This document shows, piece by piece, positions 30,760 to 40,010 of a stretch of 64,000 nt of DNA. Source of the stretch: a virus; IMG/VR virus record IMGVR_UViG_3300034418_011250, positions 24,935 through 88,934 of that record, one strand, 5' to 3'. The first letter of the stretch is position 1. Each line of letters begins with the position of its first letter. Position numbers and translations under genes: made by a program. The notes beneath the pieces are model-generated. The model saw only the letters and a list, made by a program, of their open reading frames with translations. It searched no databases and was not told the origin of the DNA.

Positions 30760-31028
30760 TTGGTTATTTCTATTGTAATTCCTGCTCTGCCTTTTGAAAT
30801 TTCATAACCATTTTTTCTGTTATCAAATTTCATACCATATTTTTTAAAATCAAAAACAACACGCATTTCATCTTCAACAACTCCTTCTAGCAAATTTGTT
30901 GCATAATCTAATCCAAGATTGTATAATCCCTCAACTAAAGTTGGATTATCTTTAAAGTTCGATTCTAAATCTGAAATAGGTATATGTATAATCATATTTT
31001 CCTTTAATAACTTTGATTTAAACGCCAA
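30756..31028 (-). CDS. Hypothetical protein
   Basis: Overlaps the gp46 start; true start is probably near 30995. Confidence 0.45.
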   Translation of the reverse strand: MAFKSKLLKENMIIHIPISDLESNFKDNPTLVEGLYNLGLDYATNLLEGVVEDEMRVVFDFKKYGMKFDNRKNGYEISKGRAGITIEITK

Positions 31029-31843
31029 ACGAGATATTCTTTTGCTCCAATGGTATCATATTTTTGTTCACCTATCAGACTATCAACCTTAACATCATCT
31101 CTTGGATGAACAAAATATGGAAAACTGAAACGACTGATATTCAGATGCTCATTTACGACACGATGCGGAGTTGAGACATAAATATCATTAGTCCAGCGTT
31201 GAAGCAAATCTCCAACATTTACAATACAAGTATTTGTAATGTAAGGAGCATCAATCCATTCATCTGTTCCTCTTGGCTTTATTTGTAATCCAGGATTTTC
31301 ATCCGTGAATAAAATTGTAATTGTTCCATAATCCGTATGTTCTCCTCCACGCATTTGATTTTCTTGTATTCTACCATTCCAAGCAGGATAATGTAGCATT
31401 CTTGCTGTAGTAGATGAAGATTCTCTATGTTTATCAATCAAAAATAATTCTGGCAAATCTAATGCTTTTTCAATCAACCATAAAATACGTTTACTAATAA
31501 GATCTAATACAAGATTCCATTCTAGACATATATCTTCAAATCCTCTATCTGGCCATTTATTGTCATCACCATACTTACACCAATTGAATGCCTCTTTTAA
31601 ATCAGGAGGTGTTCCTGGAGTCAAACTTTCTATCATCCCTTGATATCCAGTGTTTGATTCTGTTGATGTGTACTTGTATTTGTTTTTTTCATCAATTGGT
31701 AAAGCAAAAAATTTCTTAGCATGATTCAATATTTTTGGCCATGTTGTTTGCGTTTCAAAATAAGCAAACCCGATGGTCTTGAATGCTTCATCTAATTTAA
31801 TATGAGCATCATCATCTAAATGATTTATAATTGGTATTTTCAT
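31004..31843 (-). CDS. Isopenicillin N synthase-like 2OG-Fe(II) oxygenase
   Basis: DLKEAF, RMLHYP, HTDYGTITIL, NVGDLLQRWTND, STPHRV, RFSFPYF. Confidence 0.9.
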   Translation of the reverse strand: MKIPIINHLDDDAHIKLDEAFKTIGFAYFETQTTWPKILNHAKKFFALPIDEKNKYKYTSTESNTGYQGMIESLTPGTPPDLKEAFNWCKYGDDNKWPDRGFEDICLEWNLVLDLISKRILWLIEKALDLPELFLIDKHRESSSTTARMLHYPAWNGRIQENQMRGGEHTDYGTITILFTDENPGLQIKPRGTDEWIDAPYITNTCIVNVGDLLQRWTNDIYVSTPHRVVNEHLNISRFSFPYFVHPRDDVKVDSLIGEQKYDTIGAKEYLVWRLNQSY

Positions 31844-31852
31844 AAGAATATA

Positions 31853-31871
31853 TGGGGGATTTACTCCCCCA
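31853..31871 (-). terminator. GC-rich hairpin after the BMP gene
   Basis: TGGGGGA-GTAAA-TCCCCCA followed by TATATTCTT. Confidence 0.55.
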
Positions 31872-31878
31872 ATAAATG

Positions 31879-32937
31879 TTATTGCATCTGAGTAGTTACA
31901 CCATCAACATAATGATCCATTGAATCAATTTCTGATCTTCCTGATCCTGGAGGAACAATTCTTCCATCCTGTCTCATATATCCTCTTGAAAAAGGAAATG
32001 AAGCATCATATTCTCCTGACACAAATTTAGCTTTCTCAACTTCTACAAAAGACTTGACACTTTCTGGAACATTTGGACCCCATGGGCTAAGATCAACACA
32101 TCCCCTTTCCATACCCCAGAATGGTGTGTCTACTTCCCATGTTCCATCTTCAACTGTTTTCATCACATGCTTGTAATAGACATCCCAGTTGAACATTGGA
32201 CCAGTTGCGTATCGATCAGGACCAAATGAATTCATTGGTGCATCATTACCCATTCCCCAAAGTGGATTTTCAGGTGTTGACTTTTTCTGAGCTAGCATAA
32301 CAACCGATGGTGAATCAGTAGTTGTGAAGAAAACATCTACTCCACTTGTATGAAGCGCATCTGCTGCAGCTGCATCTTTACTTGGATCAAACCATGAATT
32401 AATCCAAACAATTGAAACTTCAACATCTGGATTTACTGATTTTGCTCCAAGAGTTGCTGCATTGATGTTTGAAATAATTTCTGGAATTGGATGTGAACCA
32501 ACAAATCCAATCTTGTTTGTTTTTGTAAGCAATCCTGCAGCAACACCAGCTAGGTATCGTGCTTGGAATAATCTACAATTGTAGTTATTCATGTTTTCTG
32601 CAGTTTTGAATCCTGTAGCATGCATGAACTTGACATCTGGAAATTTCTTGGCGACATTAAGCATGGATTCCATATATCCAAATGATGTGCCAAAAACTAC
32701 ATCATGCTTTCTTGCCAAATTTCGAAATACTCTTTCTGATTCTGTTTCTGCCACTGCTTCAACTACATCAAATTCATATCCTGATTCTTTCATCCCTTGA
32801 TAATGCCTCATACTCCAACCACCATCACTTTTCGGACCAACTAAAACTAATCCTGCAGTCGGTTTCTCTGCAGCAAATACAATGGTTGTAAATGCTACAA
32901 ACGTAATCATCATCAATACACTAAAGAATTTTTTCAT
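31879..32937 (-). CDS. BMP-family (purine nucleoside-type) ABC substrate-binding protein
   Basis: Signal peptide; GPKSDGGWS, GTSFGY, YLAGVAAG, KTNKIGFVG, INAATLGAKSVNPD, SWFDP. Confidence 0.88.
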   Translation of the reverse strand: MKKFFSVLMMITFVAFTTIVFAAEKPTAGLVLVGPKSDGGWSMRHYQGMKESGYEFDVVEAVAETESERVFRNLARKHDVVFGTSFGYMESMLNVAKKFPDVKFMHATGFKTAENMNNYNCRLFQARYLAGVAAGLLTKTNKIGFVGSHPIPEIISNINAATLGAKSVNPDVEVSIVWINSWFDPSKDAAAADALHTSGVDVFFTTTDSPSVVMLAQKKSTPENPLWGMGNDAPMNSFGPDRYATGPMFNWDVYYKHVMKTVEDGTWEVDTPFWGMERGCVDLSPWGPNVPESVKSFVEVEKAKFVSGEYDASFPFSRGYMRQDGRIVPPGSGRSEIDSMDHYVDGVTTQMQ

Positions 32938-33020: not shown

Positions 33021-33350
33021 TTATTGTCGATATCTCATTAATCTGGTGATTTTTCCATTATCATCATAATTAATGACATAAACTTGATTATATCCTTTTT
33101 GATTATCCATCATTACAGTTAATTGAGCAAACACGACATTTCCATTTGTTGCCATATTATCAATATGGTTCACAAGCATAACTGATGACGAAAAATAATT
33201 TGTGTAATGCTCATAAATCTTAGGTTTTGTTGTAATAATGTTATTCCAATCATAAAAAACACATATGTCACTAAAGCATTCTAAAACACATGTGGAATCT
33301 TTTTTATTCAAACATTGAAAGAAAGTTGCAGCTTGTTTTATAAAATTCAT
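33021..33350 (-). CDS. NTF2/SnoaL-like fold protein
   Basis: Size and pattern: FSDICVFYD...YVINYDDNGKITRL. Confidence 0.6.
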   Translation of the reverse strand: MNFIKQAATFFQCLNKKDSTCVLECFSDICVFYDWNNIITTKPKIYEHYTNYFSSSVMLVNHIDNMATNGNVVFAQLTVMMDNQKGYNQVYVINYDDNGKITRLMRYRQ

Positions 33351-34321
33351 TATGCCTTGAATTGTTTTTCAAATTCACGAAGTCTTTTGTATACACTCAT
33401 AAGTTCTACAATTTGCAACCAACTACGAATAATAAATTGCAAACTTTCTGCAACTTTACCGAATGCTCTTGTTGTTTGACTCACGATTCCTAATGTGATT
33501 CCACCAGCAATGATGCTTGGTCCAAGCGCAACATAAGGAACAATCACCATACCTTGCAAATAACTCCATTTTGCAATATTGAAATAAAAGTAATGCAAAT
33601 AAGAATGAAAATGAATTGCTTTTACATTATCGAATAATTCTTCTACAGTTGACAACTTTGCTCTTGTTTTTTTATCTTCGCCATGAACCAATTCTTTTCT
33701 GTAAGCAGCTTCTTCTTTTTGAATATCGTATTCAATTCCTGGAAGTTTAGAACCAATTGCGCTTAAAACAGCTGTTCCACCCAATGCTGTAACAATCACA
33801 GCCCAAACAAGTCCATGATCTACTTGCCCAAAAATAGGAAATTCTGTAACTGCTTTACTCAGTCCATATAGAATAGGAACAAATGCAATCAACATCAAAA
33901 CTGATTCAAGTAATCCAACACCAAGATTCTCAGTTAATCTAGCAAATTTTAATGTGTCTTCTTGAACACGTTGACTTGCACCTTCAATGTGTCTAACCTT
34001 TTGCCAGTTCTCATGATAATAATCTGCCATACTTTGTCGCCATCGAAATGTCCAATGATTAACTAAGAATCCATTGAAGATCACATTCACTATAATGTAA
34101 ATACCTGCAATGCTGAAAAAATCAAACATGTATCCATAATATTCATCATAACTTACAGATCCAGGTTCAGACAATGCCTTCTGAAGTGCATCGTAAAATC
34201 TTCCAAACCATTCATTAATTTGAACATCTAATTGAACACTATACCAAATTGCTGCAATAATGGTTAATGTTCCAAGTCTACTCCATAGTCTCCATCTTTT
34301 ATCAGTAAAAAATCTAAACAT
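33350..34321 (-). CDS. sbmA: SbmA/BacA-like peptide transporter
   Basis: INEWFGRFYD, FRWRQSM, IEGASQRVQEDT, KEEAAYRKELVHGED, FGKVAESLQ, ELMSVYKRLREFE. Confidence 0.9.
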   Translation of the reverse strand: MFRFFTDKRWRLWSRLGTLTIIAAIWYSVQLDVQINEWFGRFYDALQKALSEPGSVSYDEYYGYMFDFFSIAGIYIIVNVIFNGFLVNHWTFRWRQSMADYYHENWQKVRHIEGASQRVQEDTLKFARLTENLGVGLLESVLMLIAFVPILYGLSKAVTEFPIFGQVDHGLVWAVIVTALGGTAVLSAIGSKLPGIEYDIQKEEAAYRKELVHGEDKKTRAKLSTVEELFDNVKAIHFHSYLHYFYFNIAKWSYLQGMVIVPYVALGPSIIAGGITLGIVSQTTRAFGKVAESLQFIIRSWLQIVELMSVYKRLREFEKQFKA

Positions 34322-36039: not shown

Positions 36040-37515
36040 TCAGGAGATTCGAATCCTATGAATCTCATAATTAAACTGTTCGCTGTTATAAATATTGATT
36101 CTCTCTTGAAAATGATTTAAAGTGTAATTACTCTTCTTTCCAGATGAAAGATCATCCGCAATATCAAATAGTGTAGCATATGTTTTTTGTTCGTTCGTTC
36201 TTAATCCTCTTCCTATTGATTGTAATGTTCGAATTCTTGACTTACTTGGGCTCGCAAATATAATGTTATGTAGATTTTTAATGTTGATTCCTGTTGAGAA
36301 GGTTCCATAAGAAGCAACAATAATACAATCATTTTTTTCTTCAGATAGTTTTCTTATATCTTCTCTGACTTCAGTATCTGTAGCTCCATAAACATAATAA
36401 ACTGGTCTTTCTGTTGATGATTTTATTTGATCATACAGAATAGCTCCATGTTTTTCTACATATTGAAATAAAAGTAATGTGTTGTTTTTTAATCTAAGTG
36501 CAAGATCGCAGATGAACTGATTTCTTTTTGAATGAGAAGTGATAAAATCCATTTCTTGAGGATATGACATTTTCTTGACGAGTTTACATTCTTCATCACT
36601 ATAGGTAAGAACTAATGCTTGGATGTTTAGCGTTGCAAGTGTCTTCTTTTCCATTAGTTCTTTGGTCGAGACTACTTTTTTTACTGGACCAAACAATCCT
36701 TCTAAAACAAGTCGATGTGTTTGCGTTCCATCAAGCGTACCAGTCAAACCAAATCTATATTTAGTCATATGCAGCTTATGCATGATATTTGAAAGTGATT
36801 TTGCTTTAAATAAATGGCATTCATCACCAATCACTGCACCAAATGTTTCAAAATATTTTGTTGGAAATTTATAAATAGATTGCCATGTAGAAATAACAAC
36901 AGGATGTGTTACATTTCTATCATGTCCAGAATATATTTTTTGAATGTTTGATTCCTGCCAACCATAATCAACAAAATCAGAAGCAAGTTGTTCAACAAGA
37001 GATGTGGTTGGAACAAGAATCAAAATATTCTGTTGATCTGTTTCTTCTAAAATGTTTAGATAGAATCGAACCAAACAGTAGATAATAAGAGATTTGCCTG
37101 AAGCAGTAGGACTGATAAGTAATGTCCGATTGTTTCGAATTGCGTGTGCCAAGGCATCAATTTGATAGTCACGTGGTTTGACATTTTTTCCAGCTGATTT
37201 TAGCTTGAGATATTTTGTGAATGATTCAACATCTTTTGTTGAAATAGAAACAGCATCATTTAACAACTCCTCAGAAAGTGTATAATTTATTTCTTGTTGT
37301 TGCAGATACTCAGCAAGGTAAGAAAGTAGACCAATATATAATTCTCCTGTCATTACATTAAACAGTCGAATTTTTCCATCCCAAATTCTGTTCCTTACAG
37401 CAGGCATAAATTTTGCCCCTGGAACTTCAAATGTAAAATATGATGAAATTTGTCGTGCTTCGGATGGTTCGCAATCTATTTTAAGATAAACTTCATTTTT
37501 CTTTTTAATTTCCAT
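36040..37515 (-). CDS. uvsW: SF2 helicase UvsW
   Basis: WDGKIRLF, SPTASGKS, DECH, GLTGT, LQSIGRGLR. Confidence 0.96.
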   Translation of the reverse strand: MEIKKKNEVYLKIDCEPSEARQISSYFTFEVPGAKFMPAVRNRIWDGKIRLFNVMTGELYIGLLSYLAEYLQQQEINYTLSEELLNDAVSISTKDVESFTKYLKLKSAGKNVKPRDYQIDALAHAIRNNRTLLISPTASGKSLIIYCLVRFYLNILEETDQQNILILVPTTSLVEQLASDFVDYGWQESNIQKIYSGHDRNVTHPVVISTWQSIYKFPTKYFETFGAVIGDECHLFKAKSLSNIMHKLHMTKYRFGLTGTLDGTQTHRLVLEGLFGPVKKVVSTKELMEKKTLATLNIQALVLTYSDEECKLVKKMSYPQEMDFITSHSKRNQFICDLALRLKNNTLLLFQYVEKHGAILYDQIKSSTERPVYYVYGATDTEVREDIRKLSEEKNDCIIVASYGTFSTGINIKNLHNIIFASPSKSRIRTLQSIGRGLRTNEQKTYATLFDIADDLSSGKKSNYTLNHFQERINIYNSEQFNYEIHRIRIS

Positions 37516-37984
37516 CTTTGTCTGGCAGATAGTGTGGCACATCTAATTCATGAAATATTAAATCAGACCCATCATTGTTATTTCTTTCTTTTTTCTTTTC
37601 TTCGCTTTGGTCTTCACCATCTTTAAACTCACCTTCGAATTCTGCACCTTCATTCATCTGCTGAGACATGTTCTGTAACTTTTTATGCATGTCAGGGCTG
37701 TAAGGCAAAAAGATTGCTTTTGGTTGTTCTTCGTTTTCTAAAAGAATCCAGAAATATATCTTTTTTTGTTCCTCATTAACATCAAATGCAATTAATCTAA
37801 ATTTAGTTTCATCAGTTTTCGGAACAGGATAGCCAAACAATTTATCAAGATAAAAGTATGATCCTGATACAAAAAATAAAGAAAGAGGAATCACATAGAT
37901 TAAATGTATGCTTTTTTTAAGTTCTATCAATAAATAAAGAAAAATACTGAGAAGAACTAATCCTGTTAAAATTATATATATCAT
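37505..37984 (-). CDS. Two-TM membrane protein, third gene of the motor-like operon
   Basis: Two N-terminal hydrophobic helices, then IYFWI...PKAIFLPY; ATGA overlap with the upstream gene. Confidence 0.6.
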   Translation of the reverse strand: MIYIILTGLVLLSIFLYLLIELKKSIHLIYVIPLSLFFVSGSYFYLDKLFGYPVPKTDETKFRLIAFDVNEEQKKIYFWILLENEEQPKAIFLPYSPDMHKKLQNMSQQMNEGAEFEGEFKDGEDQSEEKKKERNNNDGSDLIFHELDVPHYLPDKDGN

Positions 37985-38610
37985 GGTCCTCTGTTTATTA
38001 TTTCAGGATTTTCTGTTGAAATTATTCTTTGGCTTTTAACTATTTCACGCCTTAATTGATTTATATTTTCAACAGTTCCATCTGATTTCATTGTAAATCT
38101 GACAAATGTTTCTTCTTGTCCTCTCCGCTCAAACCTTTTTGTTCCTTGATATATTTGCTTATATGGATTAAGTTTGACAACCTCAACACTTACATGTGTT
38201 GTCAAATCGTCATCTGAATTCTGATAATAAAAAGCATTTACAATATATTCTCCAGGAACAATACCTCGAATATTTACAACTTCACGATTTATGTGGACAA
38301 CTTTTCTTACATTATTCTCAAAATAAGAATCATTTCTATGTCCAAGATCATCACGATCTAGAAACATATTTCCTTGTTCAAGAGAAGTAAATCCAACTTT
38401 ACCAGTTGGACCTTCCATCCATAAATCTATGTCTTTATTATGATCCGCATCCCAATTCATAATAACCATAAATTCTGCTTTTGTTTCTATTCCTTCTTTT
38501 TTTGTGGGTTCATTGATTAGAATAAAACTAACAATGAAAAGAAAAACAAATCCAAGAATCAGATTAAAAAGTAAATCAATAAATGCAAGATTACTATTAT
38601 AAGATTTCAT
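37981..38610 (-). CDS. ExbD/TolR/MotB-type single-TM subunit with YfaP-like soluble domain
   Basis: AFIDLLFNLILGF TM with the conserved Asp; DIDLWMEGP...LDRDDLG...NREVV...GEYIVN. Confidence 0.65.
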   Translation of the reverse strand: MKSYNSNLAFIDLLFNLILGFVFLFIVSFILINEPTKKEGIETKAEFMVIMNWDADHNKDIDLWMEGPTGKVGFTSLEQGNMFLDRDDLGHRNDSYFENNVRKVVHINREVVNIRGIVPGEYIVNAFYYQNSDDDLTTHVSVEVVKLNPYKQIYQGTKRFERRGQEETFVRFTMKSDGTVENINQLRREIVKSQRIISTENPEIINRGP

Positions 38611-39034
38611 CTTTTGCTATGATTAGTTGCCACTTTATGAGAACACTAGACACTAGACCTACTAATGTAGTTAAAAGTGCTGTTCCCATTCCTTGTGCCA
38701 TCATCATCATACTCTGCTGAAGTTTTATTGTATCTGCTATATTTAATTCTGCAAATGCAGAATAAAGCATAAAGATAAATCCTACAACTGTTCCGATCAT
38801 TCCAAGACTAATGACTGTCTCAGATGTAAACCATTCCATTTCAAAATCATAATTTTCTTTGTAATACTTGTACCCAATGTTTAGTGTTGTAAAAGCAAAA
38901 ATAGCAAGTATTACAAAACTTAGTCTTGTGAAATCATTATAGTATAAAAATTCTACAAATGAAAAATACCAGCTTATTGAAGATGCTATGATTATTAGAA
39001 CAAATAATAACCACCATTTTAAAAATATTGACAT
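38597..39034 (-). CDS. MotA/TolQ/ExbB proton-channel family protein
   Basis: LGMIGTVVGF and GMGTALLTTLVGL channel helices. Confidence 0.8.
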   Translation of the reverse strand: MSIFLKWWLLFVLIIIASSISWYFSFVEFLYYNDFTRLSFVILAIFAFTTLNIGYKYYKENYDFEMEWFTSETVISLGMIGTVVGFIFMLYSAFAELNIADTIKLQQSMMMMAQGMGTALLTTLVGLVSSVLIKWQLIIAKDEIL

Positions 39035-39035
39035 G

Positions 39036-39455
39036 TTAATTTAATCCTTCACTAAATTTTTTCCAATCAATTGCGTTTTTAATTTGGAATCCTCTATTAT
39101 TTAGAGACTTTAAAATACCTTCCAGATATGCCAAAATGGTTTTATAAAATTCCCATTTATTTTTTAATTTTAATAATTCTTCGTCTGAATCAAGATATAT
39201 TGGTATATCTTGTTTTAAAATTGTTAAAGGAAAAGGAATTTCGCTCTTTCCAGTGTAAAATTCCCATTTGTTTCTATACAGAATCTTGTAATCAGATTCA
39301 GCTTGTTTGGCAAGAACATTATAATTTGCAAAATAATTAAGGTATTTGTGCTGGAGTTCTGGTATTCTGAGGGATTCAATATCAAGATTATCTTTCTCAA
39401 GTTTCATATCTTTTTCTGCAATATCTCGCAGTTCATCAAAAGTCATAATTTCCAC
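39036..39455 (-). CDS. uvsY: Recombination mediator UvsY
   Basis: ESLRIPELQHKYL...WEFYTGK...RGFQIKNAIDW. Confidence 0.88.
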   Translation of the reverse strand: MEIMTFDELRDIAEKDMKLEKDNLDIESLRIPELQHKYLNYFANYNVLAKQAESDYKILYRNKWEFYTGKSEIPFPLTILKQDIPIYLDSDEELLKLKNKWEFYKTILAYLEGILKSLNNRGFQIKNAIDWKKFSEGLN

Positions 39456-39473
39456 TCCTACATAATTTAAAAT

Positions 39474-39481
39474 TATTTATA
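39474..39481 (-). promoter_or_regulatory. Late promoter TATAAATA for uvsY, the motor genes and uvsW
   Basis: Exact match overlapping the gp3 stop codon. Confidence 0.75.
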
Positions 39482-40010
39482 GTCTTCTTAATTCAATATC
39501 AGAAAATTTAAATGTTGCGGTTGCAGAAAGAGATACAACATCAGTTTGTTGCGTATCATATTCTAATCCAGTCAATGTGATAGGATAAACGTCTTTATAA
39601 ACAATTTGAAGTAATGGATTATTTTTGTTTGACAGGATTGTCAATGTGGCTTCAGAAAACATGTTTTGAGGTTCTTGCTCACTTTCTGTTATCATAGCAG
39701 CAAATTCACCTCTGGTTGCAGGGAAAGCAATTCCTCGAACCCAATTGTAAATTTCTTCCCAATTTTCAAGGGATTCATTTACCATAAATTTTACAGATAA
39801 ATCTTCATATTCTAAAATATCAGCACCATTGTAAAATGCTTTAAATGGAGTATTTATTTCAGCATCACCTGTGTGTGAAACTTGAGGAACATTTGCTGCA
39901 ACAATAAAATATTCTACATTAGGAAGTCTTGCTATTTGAAAACGAAACTGAGAAGGAGCAGCGTAGTCTATATTGGTAGGGATTCGATTTGCGGCAACTA
40001 AATCAACCAT
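39477..40010 (-). CDS. gp3: Tail completion / tube terminator gp3-like
   Basis: FRFQIARLPNVEYF...FMVNESLENWEEIYNW...ATLTIL; position after gp23. Confidence 0.75.
   Translation of the reverse strand: MVDLVAANRIPTNIDYAAPSQFRFQIARLPNVEYFIVAANVPQVSHTGDAEINTPFKAFYNGADILEYEDLSVKFMVNESLENWEEIYNWVRGIAFPATRGEFAAMITESEQEPQNMFSEATLTILSNKNNPLLQIVYKDVYPITLTGLEYDTQQTDVVSLSATATFKFSDIELRRL

What the first reader, a model, noticed from the sequence alone, without database searches (positions are those of the whole stretch)
37505..39034. Phage-encoded miniature ion-driven membrane motor (MotA/ExbB + ExbD-like + 2-TM partner) between uvsY and uvsW
Seen: three overlapping genes downstream of a late promoter. 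They encode a 145-aa channel protein (GMIGTVVG, GMGTALLTTLVGL), a single-TM subunit with the conserved Asp (FIDLL) followed by a YfaP-like domain rather than an OmpA-type peptidoglycan-binding domain, and a 2-TM protein. Established: MotAB, ExbBD, TolQR and ZorAB are 5:2 ion-powered motors. Inference: the phage builds its own PMF-coupled complex, with the third gene as a possible transducer. Possible roles are superinfection exclusion, lysis timing, energising uptake, or a decoy against Zorya. I know of no described function for such a module in a phage.
Basis: partly seen in the sequence, partly recalled or inferred. Interest (0 to 1): 0.75.

Follow-up and report, generated by a model that had tools for sequence, protein, structure and literature searches.

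The report
Phage-borne mini MotA/ExbB-type membrane module
A marine T4-like phage carries three tightly packed membrane genes that look like a stripped-down ion-powered motor of the flagellar-stator/Ton/Tol kind; the same unstudied trio is common in marine phages and is also a normal chromosomal operon in many bacteria, so it is a real, conserved machine whose job nobody has yet tested.

Summary
Three overlapping minus-strand genes (A 38597-39034, B 37981-38610, C 37505-37984) form a 1.5-kb insert between uvsY and uvsW.

- **A** is a 145-aa, 4-TM MotA/ExbB-family protein with almost no cytoplasmic loop.
- **B** has one TM helix whose Asp12 is kept in 87 of 87 relatives that cover it, plus a beta-sandwich closest to TerD, not to OmpA or ExbD.
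- **C** is a 2-TM hairpin with a small outward-facing domain of no known fold.

The A-B-C order is kept in 80 viral contigs, in Rhizobium phages, and in bacterial chromosomes outside prophages. B occurs in 10 of 11 genomes of one small-genome alphaproteobacterial order, in 51 of 401 sampled Alphaproteobacteria, and in Azospirillum brasilense Sp7. dN/dS is about 0.1, so this is not decaying cargo.

The best reading is an ion-driven A-B complex with output on the periplasmic side, kept by the phage as a long-resident auxiliary envelope module. The 5:2 assembly and the function remain untested. I found no paper on it. This scan's first readers noted the same trio in other phage genomes. The kind is known; the variant is new.

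The parts
39474..39481 (-). TATAAATA, T4-type late-promoter-like octamer about 19 nt upstream of uvsY. It is the nearest candidate promoter for a uvsY-A-B-C-uvsW transcript.
   Evidence: 15 matches in the window against 5.6 expected, 12 of them on the coding strand. No terminator-like site lies between it and A; the one terminator-like site in the region falls inside gene B. Function not shown.
39036..39455 (-). uvsY (flank, core T4-like gene). Its last codons carry the GAAGGA Shine-Dalgarno-like sequence for gene A.
   Evidence: PF11056 E 1.6e-32, phrog_231; sequence read.
38597..39034 (-). Gene A: 145-aa, 4-TM MotA/ExbB-family channel subunit, N-in/C-in, with a cytoplasmic loop of only about 21 residues.
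   Evidence: PF01618 at 28 bits against a cut-off of 22.9. All 120 listed homologues carry PF01618. T82, T122/T123, G78/G81/G85/G126 are invariant or nearly so in 87 proteins. hhalign to TolQ and ExbB. Topology from K/R counts.
37981..38610 (-). Gene B: 209 aa. One N-terminal TM helix carries Asp12, followed by a beta-sandwich (residues about 45-190) with a conserved acidic cluster (D60, D62, D85, D87, D88, D94).
   Evidence: Alignments A1 and A4. D12 in 87 of 87. AF2 model pLDDT 82. TerD is the best fold match, Z 9.7 and 9.2. No Pfam, PHROG or NCBIfam model.
37505..37984 (-). Gene C: 159 aa. A 2-TM hairpin (N-out/C-out by K/R counts), a GYP motif, a small alpha/beta domain, an acidic disordered loop and a conserved C-terminal strand.
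   Evidence: Alignment A3. AF2 model pLDDT 75. No fold or family match. Topology.
37528..39035 (-). Extent of the insert relative to related phages that lack it.
   Evidence: A contig in DNA run X16 joins 37527 to 39036, skipping 1508 nt. In phage Melnitz uvsY and uvsW abut.
36040..37542 (-). uvsW helicase (flank, core gene). The true start is probably the second Met, at about 37515.
   Evidence: UvsW_N, ResIII and Helicase_C domains; 69% nt identity to Melnitz.

Best explanation
The three genes are a phage-borne copy of a widespread but uncharacterised cellular envelope operon. A contains essentially only the four-helix membrane core of a MotA/ExbB-family subunit. B has a single TM helix with an invariant Asp. 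Together they most likely form an ion-conducting, stator-like inner-membrane complex; the 5:2 form is assumed by analogy and not shown. A has no cytoplasmic domain, so any work must be delivered on the periplasmic side, as in Ton, Tol and Gld systems. The carriers would be B's TerD/PPC-like, probably Ca2+-binding, beta-sandwich and the outward-facing domain of the 2-TM protein C, the candidate transducer. In this phage the module is an old, selected insert. It is probably co-transcribed late with uvsY and uvsW. It probably maintains or boosts a PMF-coupled envelope function of the infected cell, perhaps linked to uptake, since it repeatedly sits beside SbmA/BacA and BMP cargo genes. Shown here: family membership of A, the conserved residues, gene order, distribution and purifying selection. 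Inferred: complex formation, ion coupling, topology of B and C, timing and role.
For: - A passes the Pfam MotA_ExbB threshold.
- T82 and T123 are invariant or nearly so in 87 proteins. They align with the TolQ 'GTVWG' and 'ALIATAIGL' helices and the ExbB 'ALLATAIGL' helix.
- B's D12 is present in 87 of 87 relatives that cover it and registers with ExbD D25.
- The A-B-C order and orientation hold in all 80 viral loci and 28 genome loci where the contig allows, in Rhizobium phage RHph_I1_9 and in Azospirillum brasilense Sp7.
- Chromosomal, non-prophage contexts were seen in a SAR11-like clade, in Geminicoccaceae and in Desulfobacterales.
- B is present in 10 of 11 genomes of one order and in 51 of 401 sampled Alphaproteobacteria.
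- The B family spans 2120 50%-identity clusters, all of one architecture among the 150 listed.
- dN/dS is 0.085, 0.124 and 0.118 for A, B and C, against 0.12 for uvsY and 0.074 for uvsW.
- GC content matches the phage background.
- Viral B proteins form their own deep clades.
- K/R counts place A's loops as in MotA and put C's domain outside.
- SbmA abuts C in several lineages, and BMP lies directly upstream in others.
Against: - No complex could be modelled and there are no experimental data.
- hhalign probabilities to TolQ and ExbB are only 35-46%. Profile searches of the PDB sequences found nothing.
- B has no detectable homology to the ExbD/TolR or MotB periplasmic domains.
- Known TerD proteins are cytoplasmic, and B's orientation by K/R count alone is ambiguous.
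- Only 6 of 58 phage SbmA loci hold the module within 6 kb, so the uptake link may be mere co-location in cargo islands.
- In one lineage the upstream neighbours are an SLT protein and an M15 peptidase, which would fit a lysis or entry role instead.
Confidence: 0.55

Rival explanations
1. Passive or gated ion pathway rather than a motor. A and B form a H+, Na+ or Ca2+ conducting channel or sensor, with B's Ca2+-binding-type sandwich as the gate. The phage uses it to tune membrane potential or ion balance. C is only an assembly factor.
For: A lacks every cytoplasmic element that other family members use to deliver work. B's domain resembles Ca2+-binding TerD and PPC-type sandwiches and carries an invariant acidic cluster.
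Against: All characterised PF01618 systems with a partner Asp are energy transducers (my own knowledge of MotAB, ExbBD, TolQR, ZorAB). The strict co-conservation of C, with its own outward-facing domain, suggests an output partner.
Confidence: 0.15
2. Superinfection exclusion or defence. The complex senses envelope perturbation by an incoming phage (Zorya-like) or stiffens the envelope (Ter-like), protecting the infected cell or, in bacteria, the cell itself.
For: The best PADLOC matches are ZorA models (E 1e-6). TerD-fold proteins are linked to phage and colicin resistance, and jumbo phages carry Ter genes that have been proposed to act in competition with superinfecting phages (PMC7824862).
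Against: NCBIfam ZorA scores are 13 bits against cut-offs of 500-700. A has no ZorA tail and no ZorC/D/E-type effector is adjacent. Bacterial copies sit among housekeeping genes such as sufBCD, not in defence islands, and are near-universal in one order of 0.6-1.2 Mb genomes.
Confidence: 0.12
3. Lysis or exit device. A late-expressed membrane trio modulates PMF and so holin timing, or helps breach the envelope.
For: The probable transcript is late. In locus L029 the module directly follows an SLT-domain protein and an M15 peptidase. B has the N-in/C-out layout of an i-spanin.
Against: Only 7 of 60 viral loci have a late-promoter octamer within 260 nt upstream of A. Phage contexts are mostly replication, recombination and cargo genes. 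Chromosomal non-prophage copies in bacteria make a lysis function unlikely.
Confidence: 0.08
4. Dominant-negative decoy. The tail-less, domain-less A subunit mixes into host TolQ, ExbB or ZorA pentamers and poisons them.
For: A is essentially only the conserved membrane core.
Against: A decoy would not need a co-conserved Asp-bearing partner and a third protein. The same trio is a core cellular operon in genomes that also keep three canonical PF01618 genes.
Confidence: 0.05

Closest known systems
ExbB-ExbD-TonB and TolQ-TolR-TolA (PMF-driven inner-membrane energisers with periplasmic output)
   Same: Both have a PF01618 channel subunit with the two threonine-bearing helices. Both have a partner with one TM helix and an essential Asp in a '[F/L]ID' context. 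Both have a third membrane-anchored protein with a periplasmic part, three-gene organisation, and output necessarily on the periplasmic side.
   Different: A has four TM helices and no cytoplasmic domain, whereas ExbB and TolQ have three TM helices and a large cytoplasmic domain. B's outer domain is a TerD/PPC-like sandwich, not the ExbD/TolR fold. C has two TM helices and no TonB_C or TolA-like domain or Pro-rich linker. No TonB-dependent receptor or Pal/TolB partner is linked.
MotA-MotB / PomA-PomB flagellar stator units
   Same: A shares the 4-TM N-in/C-in topology of MotA. Both have a partner Asp near the cytoplasmic end of a single TM helix, and the genes overlap.
   Different: The cytoplasmic loop that carries the FliG-contacting charges is reduced to about 21 residues. 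B has no OmpA-like peptidoglycan-binding domain. No flagellar genes are present.
ZorA-ZorB of Zorya anti-phage systems
   Same: The best PADLOC hits are to the membrane core of ZorA2, with a short loop between the first helices.
   Different: There is no ZorA tail, no ZorB PG-binding domain and no ZorC/D/E. Scores are far below the family cut-offs.
TerD (tellurite-resistance Ca2+-binding beta-sandwich)
   Same: It is the best structural match to B residues 45-194 (Z 9.7, 134 aligned, rmsd 4.1; Z 9.2 to Klebsiella TerD), and both have an acidic cluster.
   Different: There is no sequence-model match. TerD proteins are soluble and cytoplasmic and have no TM helix or MotA-type partner.

Membership tests
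MotA/TolQ/ExbB proton channel family (PF01618) | Match to the family model above the curated threshold | tested here: met
   28.0 bits against a cut-off of 22.9. PF01618 is precomputed on all 120 listed homologues. The bacterial A copies score 31-35 bits.
MotA/TolQ/ExbB proton channel family (PF01618) | Two C-terminal TM helices with the conserved Thr/Gly pattern that lines the ion path (TolQ T145/T178, ExbB T148/T181; residue numbers from my own knowledge) | tested here: met
   T82 in 87/87 and T123 in 86/87 proteins. hhalign pairs GMIGTVVG with TolQ GLFGTVWG, and ALLTTLVGL with TolQ ALIATAIGL and ExbB ALLATAIGL.
MotA/TolQ/ExbB proton channel family (PF01618) | Sizeable cytoplasmic domain (MotA TM2-TM3 loop; ExbB/TolQ TM1-TM2 domain) | tested here: not met
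   The loop is about 21 residues and the C-tail about 13. The Azospirillum copy has a longer loop of roughly 70 residues.
MotA/TolQ/ExbB proton channel family (PF01618) | Pentamer around a dimer of the Asp-bearing partner (5:2) | not testable with these tools
ExbD/TolR (PF02472) | Single N-terminal TM helix with an essential Asp | tested here: met
   D12 is present in 87/87 relatives that cover it. hhalign registers AFID12LLF with ExbD PFID25VML (17 columns, E 0.02).
ExbD/TolR (PF02472) | Periplasmic ExbD/TolR-fold domain | tested here: not met
   No PF02472 hit at E <= 1. There is no hhalign match to TolR beyond noise. One of 39 relatives hits at E 0.005. The model is an all-beta sandwich.
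MotB/PomB/ZorB | C-terminal OmpA-like peptidoglycan-binding domain | tested here: not met
   No OmpA-family hit. The best fold matches are TerD and Ca2+-binding sandwiches.
TerD (PF02342) | TerD beta-sandwich fold | tested here: met
   VIA-align Z 9.7 (2qz7_B) and 9.2 (2kxt), with the next unrelated row at 6.6. Foldseek E 3e-4.
TerD (PF02342) | Match to the family sequence model and its Ca2+-binding motifs | tested here: not met
   There is no hit at E <= 1 for this protein or at E <= 0.05 for 39 relatives. An acidic cluster is conserved, but its equivalence to the TerD sites was not tested.
DUF2135 / YfaP (PF09906) | Match to the family model | tested here: inconclusive
   No hit for this protein. 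One of 39 relatives hits at E 0.0021, below threshold, and PPC hits 5 of 39 weakly. An ESM Atlas neighbour cluster is auto-named YfaP.
TonB / TolA (candidate identity of C) | Single TM anchor, extended linker and a TonB_C or TolA C-terminal domain | tested here: not met
   C has two TM helices, no Pfam hit above noise and no fold match for the soluble part.
Zorya (ZorA) | Long cytoplasmic tail on ZorA and linked ZorC/D or ZorE effectors | tested here: not met
   A is 145 aa with a 13-residue tail. NCBIfam ZorA scores are 13 bits against cut-offs of 500-700. The neighbours are uvsY and uvsW.

The most novel reading that the evidence does not exclude
The trio is a new, minimal class of 5:2 ion-driven rotary motor. 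It would have an A5 ring made of little more than the membrane core, a B2 axle ending in Ca2+-binding sandwiches, and a 2-TM transducer C. The motor would power an unknown periplasmic or outer-membrane process in many marine and soil bacteria. Phages would have carried it for a long time to energise a step of infection, for example an uptake route that feeds the SbmA/BacA importer encoded next to it in several lineages.
Probability: 0.3. Interest if true: 0.82.

Novelty: new variant of a known kind. Interest (0 to 1): 0.62.

Why it matters
MotAB, ExbBD, TolQR, GldLM and ZorAB are the few known machines that carry membrane energy to places that have none.

This trio would add a very small version with new output domains. 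Its B family spans at least 2,120 50%-identity clusters that Pfam, PHROGs and NCBIfam do not model. It is near-universal in one order of 0.6-1.2 Mb marine genomes, which argues for an important cellular job.

Its long residence in marine T4-like phages and in rhizobiophages means it matters during infection. That makes it a candidate new type of auxiliary gene set that acts on the envelope rather than on metabolism.

A 145-aa A subunit would also be an attractive minimal system for studying how these motors couple ion flow to movement. Cultured carriers exist (Rhizobium phages P10VF, RHph_I1_9 and 16-3; Azospirillum brasilense Sp7), so the question can be tested now.

Tried and rejected
- Contexts came from the search for related loci, the genome search and the fetch of an annotated region instead.
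- **Solved structures by sequence.** Profiles of A and B against PDB sequences gave nothing useful.
- **Family libraries.** PHROGs gave no hit for A, B or C. NCBIfam gave no hit for B or C and only noise for A.
- **Fold of C.** Searches returned only helical-hairpin matches and nothing for the soluble part. The ESM Atlas gave only unnamed, mostly viral clusters.
- **Dedicated late promoter.** None lies before A. It is absent here and in 53 of 60 related loci.
- **'Decaying host cargo'.** Rejected on dN/dS of about 0.1, intact frames, GC equal to the phage background and deep viral clades.
- **'Prophage remnant' for the bacterial copies.** Rejected for L095, L099 and L108, whose neighbours are housekeeping genes. 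Several short MAG contigs (L086, L100, L101, probably L085 and L109) are really phage contigs.
- **SbmA link.** Only 6 of 58 SbmA loci hold the module within 6 kb, so I keep this as a lead only.
- **RNA evidence.** One metatranscriptome library has short contigs at 85-89% identity on B and C. Contigs cannot show transcription, and DNA carry-over is possible.
- **Complex prediction.** A5B2 with or without C could not be modelled with the tools at hand.
- **Literature.** Searches found no description of this trio. One paper lists a phage 'ExbB' as a putative auxiliary gene without analysis (PMC11361711).
Full report
**Observation**

On the minus strand, three ORFs lie at 38597-39034 (A, 145 aa), 37981-38610 (B, 209 aa) and 37505-37984 (C, 159 aa).
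- A overlaps B by 14 nt, B overlaps C by 4 nt, and C overlaps the uvsW ORF. A starts one base after the uvsY stop.
- The flanks are uvsY (PF11056, E 1.6e-32) and uvsW (UvsW_N, ResIII, Helicase_C).
- The nearest cultured relatives by DNA are Methylophilales phage Melnitz and Pelagibacter phage Mosig.
- The window's record is an 88.9-kb IMG/VR virus contig, about 49% complete.
- In Melnitz, uvsY and uvsW abut. A contig in a seawater DNA run joins 37527 directly to 39036, skipping 1508 nt. The trio is therefore a precise insert that some close relatives lack.
- The only T4-type late octamer nearby (TATAAATA, 39474-39481) precedes uvsY, not A. Late co-transcription with uvsY and uvsW is plausible but not shown.

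**Gene A**

- It passes Pfam's threshold for MotA_ExbB (28.0 bits against 22.9). All 120 listed homologues, 134-163 aa apart from one 105-aa fragment, carry the same domain.
- Hydropathy and K/R counts give four TM helices with N and C termini inside. This is the MotA layout, but with a cytoplasmic loop of only about 21 residues and a 13-residue tail.
- Profile comparison pairs GMIGTVVG with TolQ GLFGTVWG, and ALLTTLVGL with TolQ ALIATAIGL and ExbB ALLATAIGL (probabilities 46% and 35%). From my own knowledge, these are the helices that carry TolQ T145/T178 and ExbB T148/T181.
- Over 87 non-identical A proteins from phages and bacteria, T82 is invariant and T123 is present in 86 of 87.
- PADLOC's best hits are ZorA membrane cores (E 1e-6). 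NCBIfam ZorA scores are 13 bits against cut-offs of 500-700.

**Gene B**

- It has one N-terminal TM helix. Its Asp12 is present in every one of 87 relatives that cover the position.
- A profile of 39 diverse members registers AFID12LLF with E. coli ExbD PFID25VML (17 columns, E 0.02).
- The rest of B has no Pfam, PHROG or NCBIfam model. Among 39 diverse relatives only sub-threshold hits appear: PPC in 5, DUF2135 in 1, ExbD in 1.
- The AF2 model (pLDDT 82) is an all-beta sandwich. Its best solved relatives are TerD proteins: Z 9.7 with 134 aligned residues, and Z 9.2 with 141 aligned. The next group, at Z 6.6-6.4, is a pair of small Bacteroidales proteins, one solved in a calcium-bound form. 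Foldseek gives E 3e-4.
- A cluster of acidic residues (D60, D62, D85, D87, D88, D94) is nearly invariant.
- B is therefore an ExbD/MotB analogue at the membrane level only. Its outer domain is of another kind.
- I place that domain in the periplasm for three reasons. The Asp sits at the N-terminal end of the helix as in ExbD, TolR and MotB. That position matches the depth of T82 in A. The net flank charge also favours N-in. K/R counts alone are ambiguous, so this placement is an inference.

**Gene C**

- It has two TM helices joined by a short K/R-rich loop, so both ends should face outward.
- After them come a conserved GYP motif, a small beta-beta-beta-alpha-beta domain, a disordered acidic loop and a conserved C-terminal strand.
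- Neither fold search nor the ESM Atlas gives it a name.

**Conservation of the trio**

- In all 80 loci fetched, A, B and C stand in the same order and orientation wherever the contig is long enough.
- Only the ten closest loci share the uvsY/uvsW flanks. Elsewhere the neighbours include gp15, DNA polymerase III alpha, gp46/gp47, ribonucleotide reductase, family-B polymerase, DnaB, peptide deformylase and, once, an SLT protein plus an M15 peptidase.
- Among 50,697 deposited phage genomes, only 29 Rhizobium and Sinorhizobium phages have B. RHph_I1_9 has the full trio. Phage 16-3 has B and C (p040, p042) and a weak candidate for A (p038).
- Against the closest relative (L005), dN/dS is 0.085 for A, 0.124 for B and 0.118 for C, like uvsY (0.12) and uvsW (0.074). 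GC content equals the phage background.

**The trio is also cellular**

- All 28 loci found in species-representative genomes show A-B-C.
- In a Desulfobacterales chromosome the neighbours are acyl-CoA dehydrogenases and radical-SAM enzymes. In a Geminicoccaceae chromosome they are trehalose genes. In a clade of small-genome marine Alphaproteobacteria they are sufBCD, aspartate dehydrogenase and an ABC-2 transporter, with synteny kept across species.
- B is present in 10 of 11 genomes of that order and in 51 of 401 sampled Alphaproteobacteria. Those genomes also keep two or three canonical PF01618 genes.
- Azospirillum brasilense Sp7 carries the trio on its 1.75-Mb chromid, with a longer cytoplasmic loop in A.
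- The B family has 2,120 clusters at 50% identity. All 150 listed have the same architecture.
- In a tree of 90 B proteins the bacterial rows cluster together and the viral rows form separate deep clades. Several short 'MAG' contigs nest among the viruses. The tree is unrooted, so no donor or order of events can be named.

**Mechanism**

The shown facts fit an ion-conducting A-B complex of the MotAB/ExbBD kind.
- A has lost nearly everything outside the membrane, so output can only be periplasmic. It would go through B's sandwich and through C, whose co-conservation and outward-facing domain make it the candidate transducer.
- The cellular distribution argues for a general envelope function rather than a phage-specific trick.
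- A lead on the role comes from neighbours. SbmA/BacA directly follows C in several diverged lineages, and BMP plus an oxygenase directly precede A in others. These are the same cargo genes that lie at 31-34.3 kb in this window.
- Only 6 of 58 SbmA loci hold the module within 6 kb, so this may reflect shared cargo islands only.
- The rivals are a plain channel or sensor, exclusion or defence, lysis timing, and a decoy. The report sections weigh each. None is excluded, but the housekeeping contexts in bacteria speak against the last three.

**Novelty**

- Searches of the paper library found no description of this trio.
- First readers of this scan noted the same kind of trio in other phage genomes, for example between gp15 and gp16. 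My locus L014 shows gp15 upstream of the module, separated from A by one unannotated ORF.
- I class it as a new variant of a known kind. Its interest is moderate to high because the family is large, unmodelled and testable in cultured systems.

Noticed in passing
L071:5188-6177, L073:5125-6102, L101:4567-5637, L155:6001-6963, L166:3262-4221; window 33350-34321: An SbmA/BacA-family gene directly follows gene C, with abutting or overlapping stop and start, in several diverged phage lineages. In this window the SbmA gene lies 3 kb away, between gp47 and gp46. Only 6 of 58 phage SbmA loci hold the module within 6 kb.
   Followed up: partly
L043:481-2573, L045:466-2558, L077:2254-3342; window 31004-32937: BMP-family binding protein (plus, in L043 and L045, a dioxygenase) lies just upstream of gene A in other phages (adjacent in L045; about 0.1-0.9 kb away in L077 and L043). 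These are the same cargo genes as in this window's gp47-gp46 island.
   Followed up: partly
window 37527/39036 (DNA run X16): A seawater metagenome contig of a related phage (about 84% identity) joins uvsW directly to uvsY, with AAT in place of the 1508-nt module. This is a natural presence/absence difference.
   Followed up: partly
L029:418-3533: In one viral lineage an 876-aa protein with an SLT transglycosylase domain and an M15 peptidase sit immediately upstream of A-B-C. This is a possible link to cell-wall breaching.
   Followed up: no
L043:4608-5288; L048:1531-2031: Cargo genes are inserted between B and C in some phages: an OMP-decarboxylase-family gene in L043 and L045, and a weak 2OG-Fe(II) oxygenase match in L048.
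   Followed up: partly
G002:C5:118950-119489; G004:C15:16618-17160: Two large alphaproteobacterial genomes hold a second, much more diverged copy of B (E about 1e-23) besides the main one.
   Followed up: no
L085, L086, L100, L101, L109: Contigs binned into bacterial MAGs (Methylophilaceae, Legionellales, Flavobacteriales, Hellea) look like phage contigs. L086's B is near-identical to viral L035, and L101 has RNR, A-B-C and SbmA like viral L072 and L073.
   Followed up: partly
L099:2641-3645: A Volactin-family (actin-like) gene lies 1.6 kb upstream of the module in a Geminicoccaceae chromosome. It is probably unrelated.
   Followed up: no
window 36040-39500 (runs X1-X15): The runs that hold this DNA almost whole are labelled freshwater metagenomes, while its relatives and the partial holders are marine. 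The source may be an estuary.
   Followed up: no
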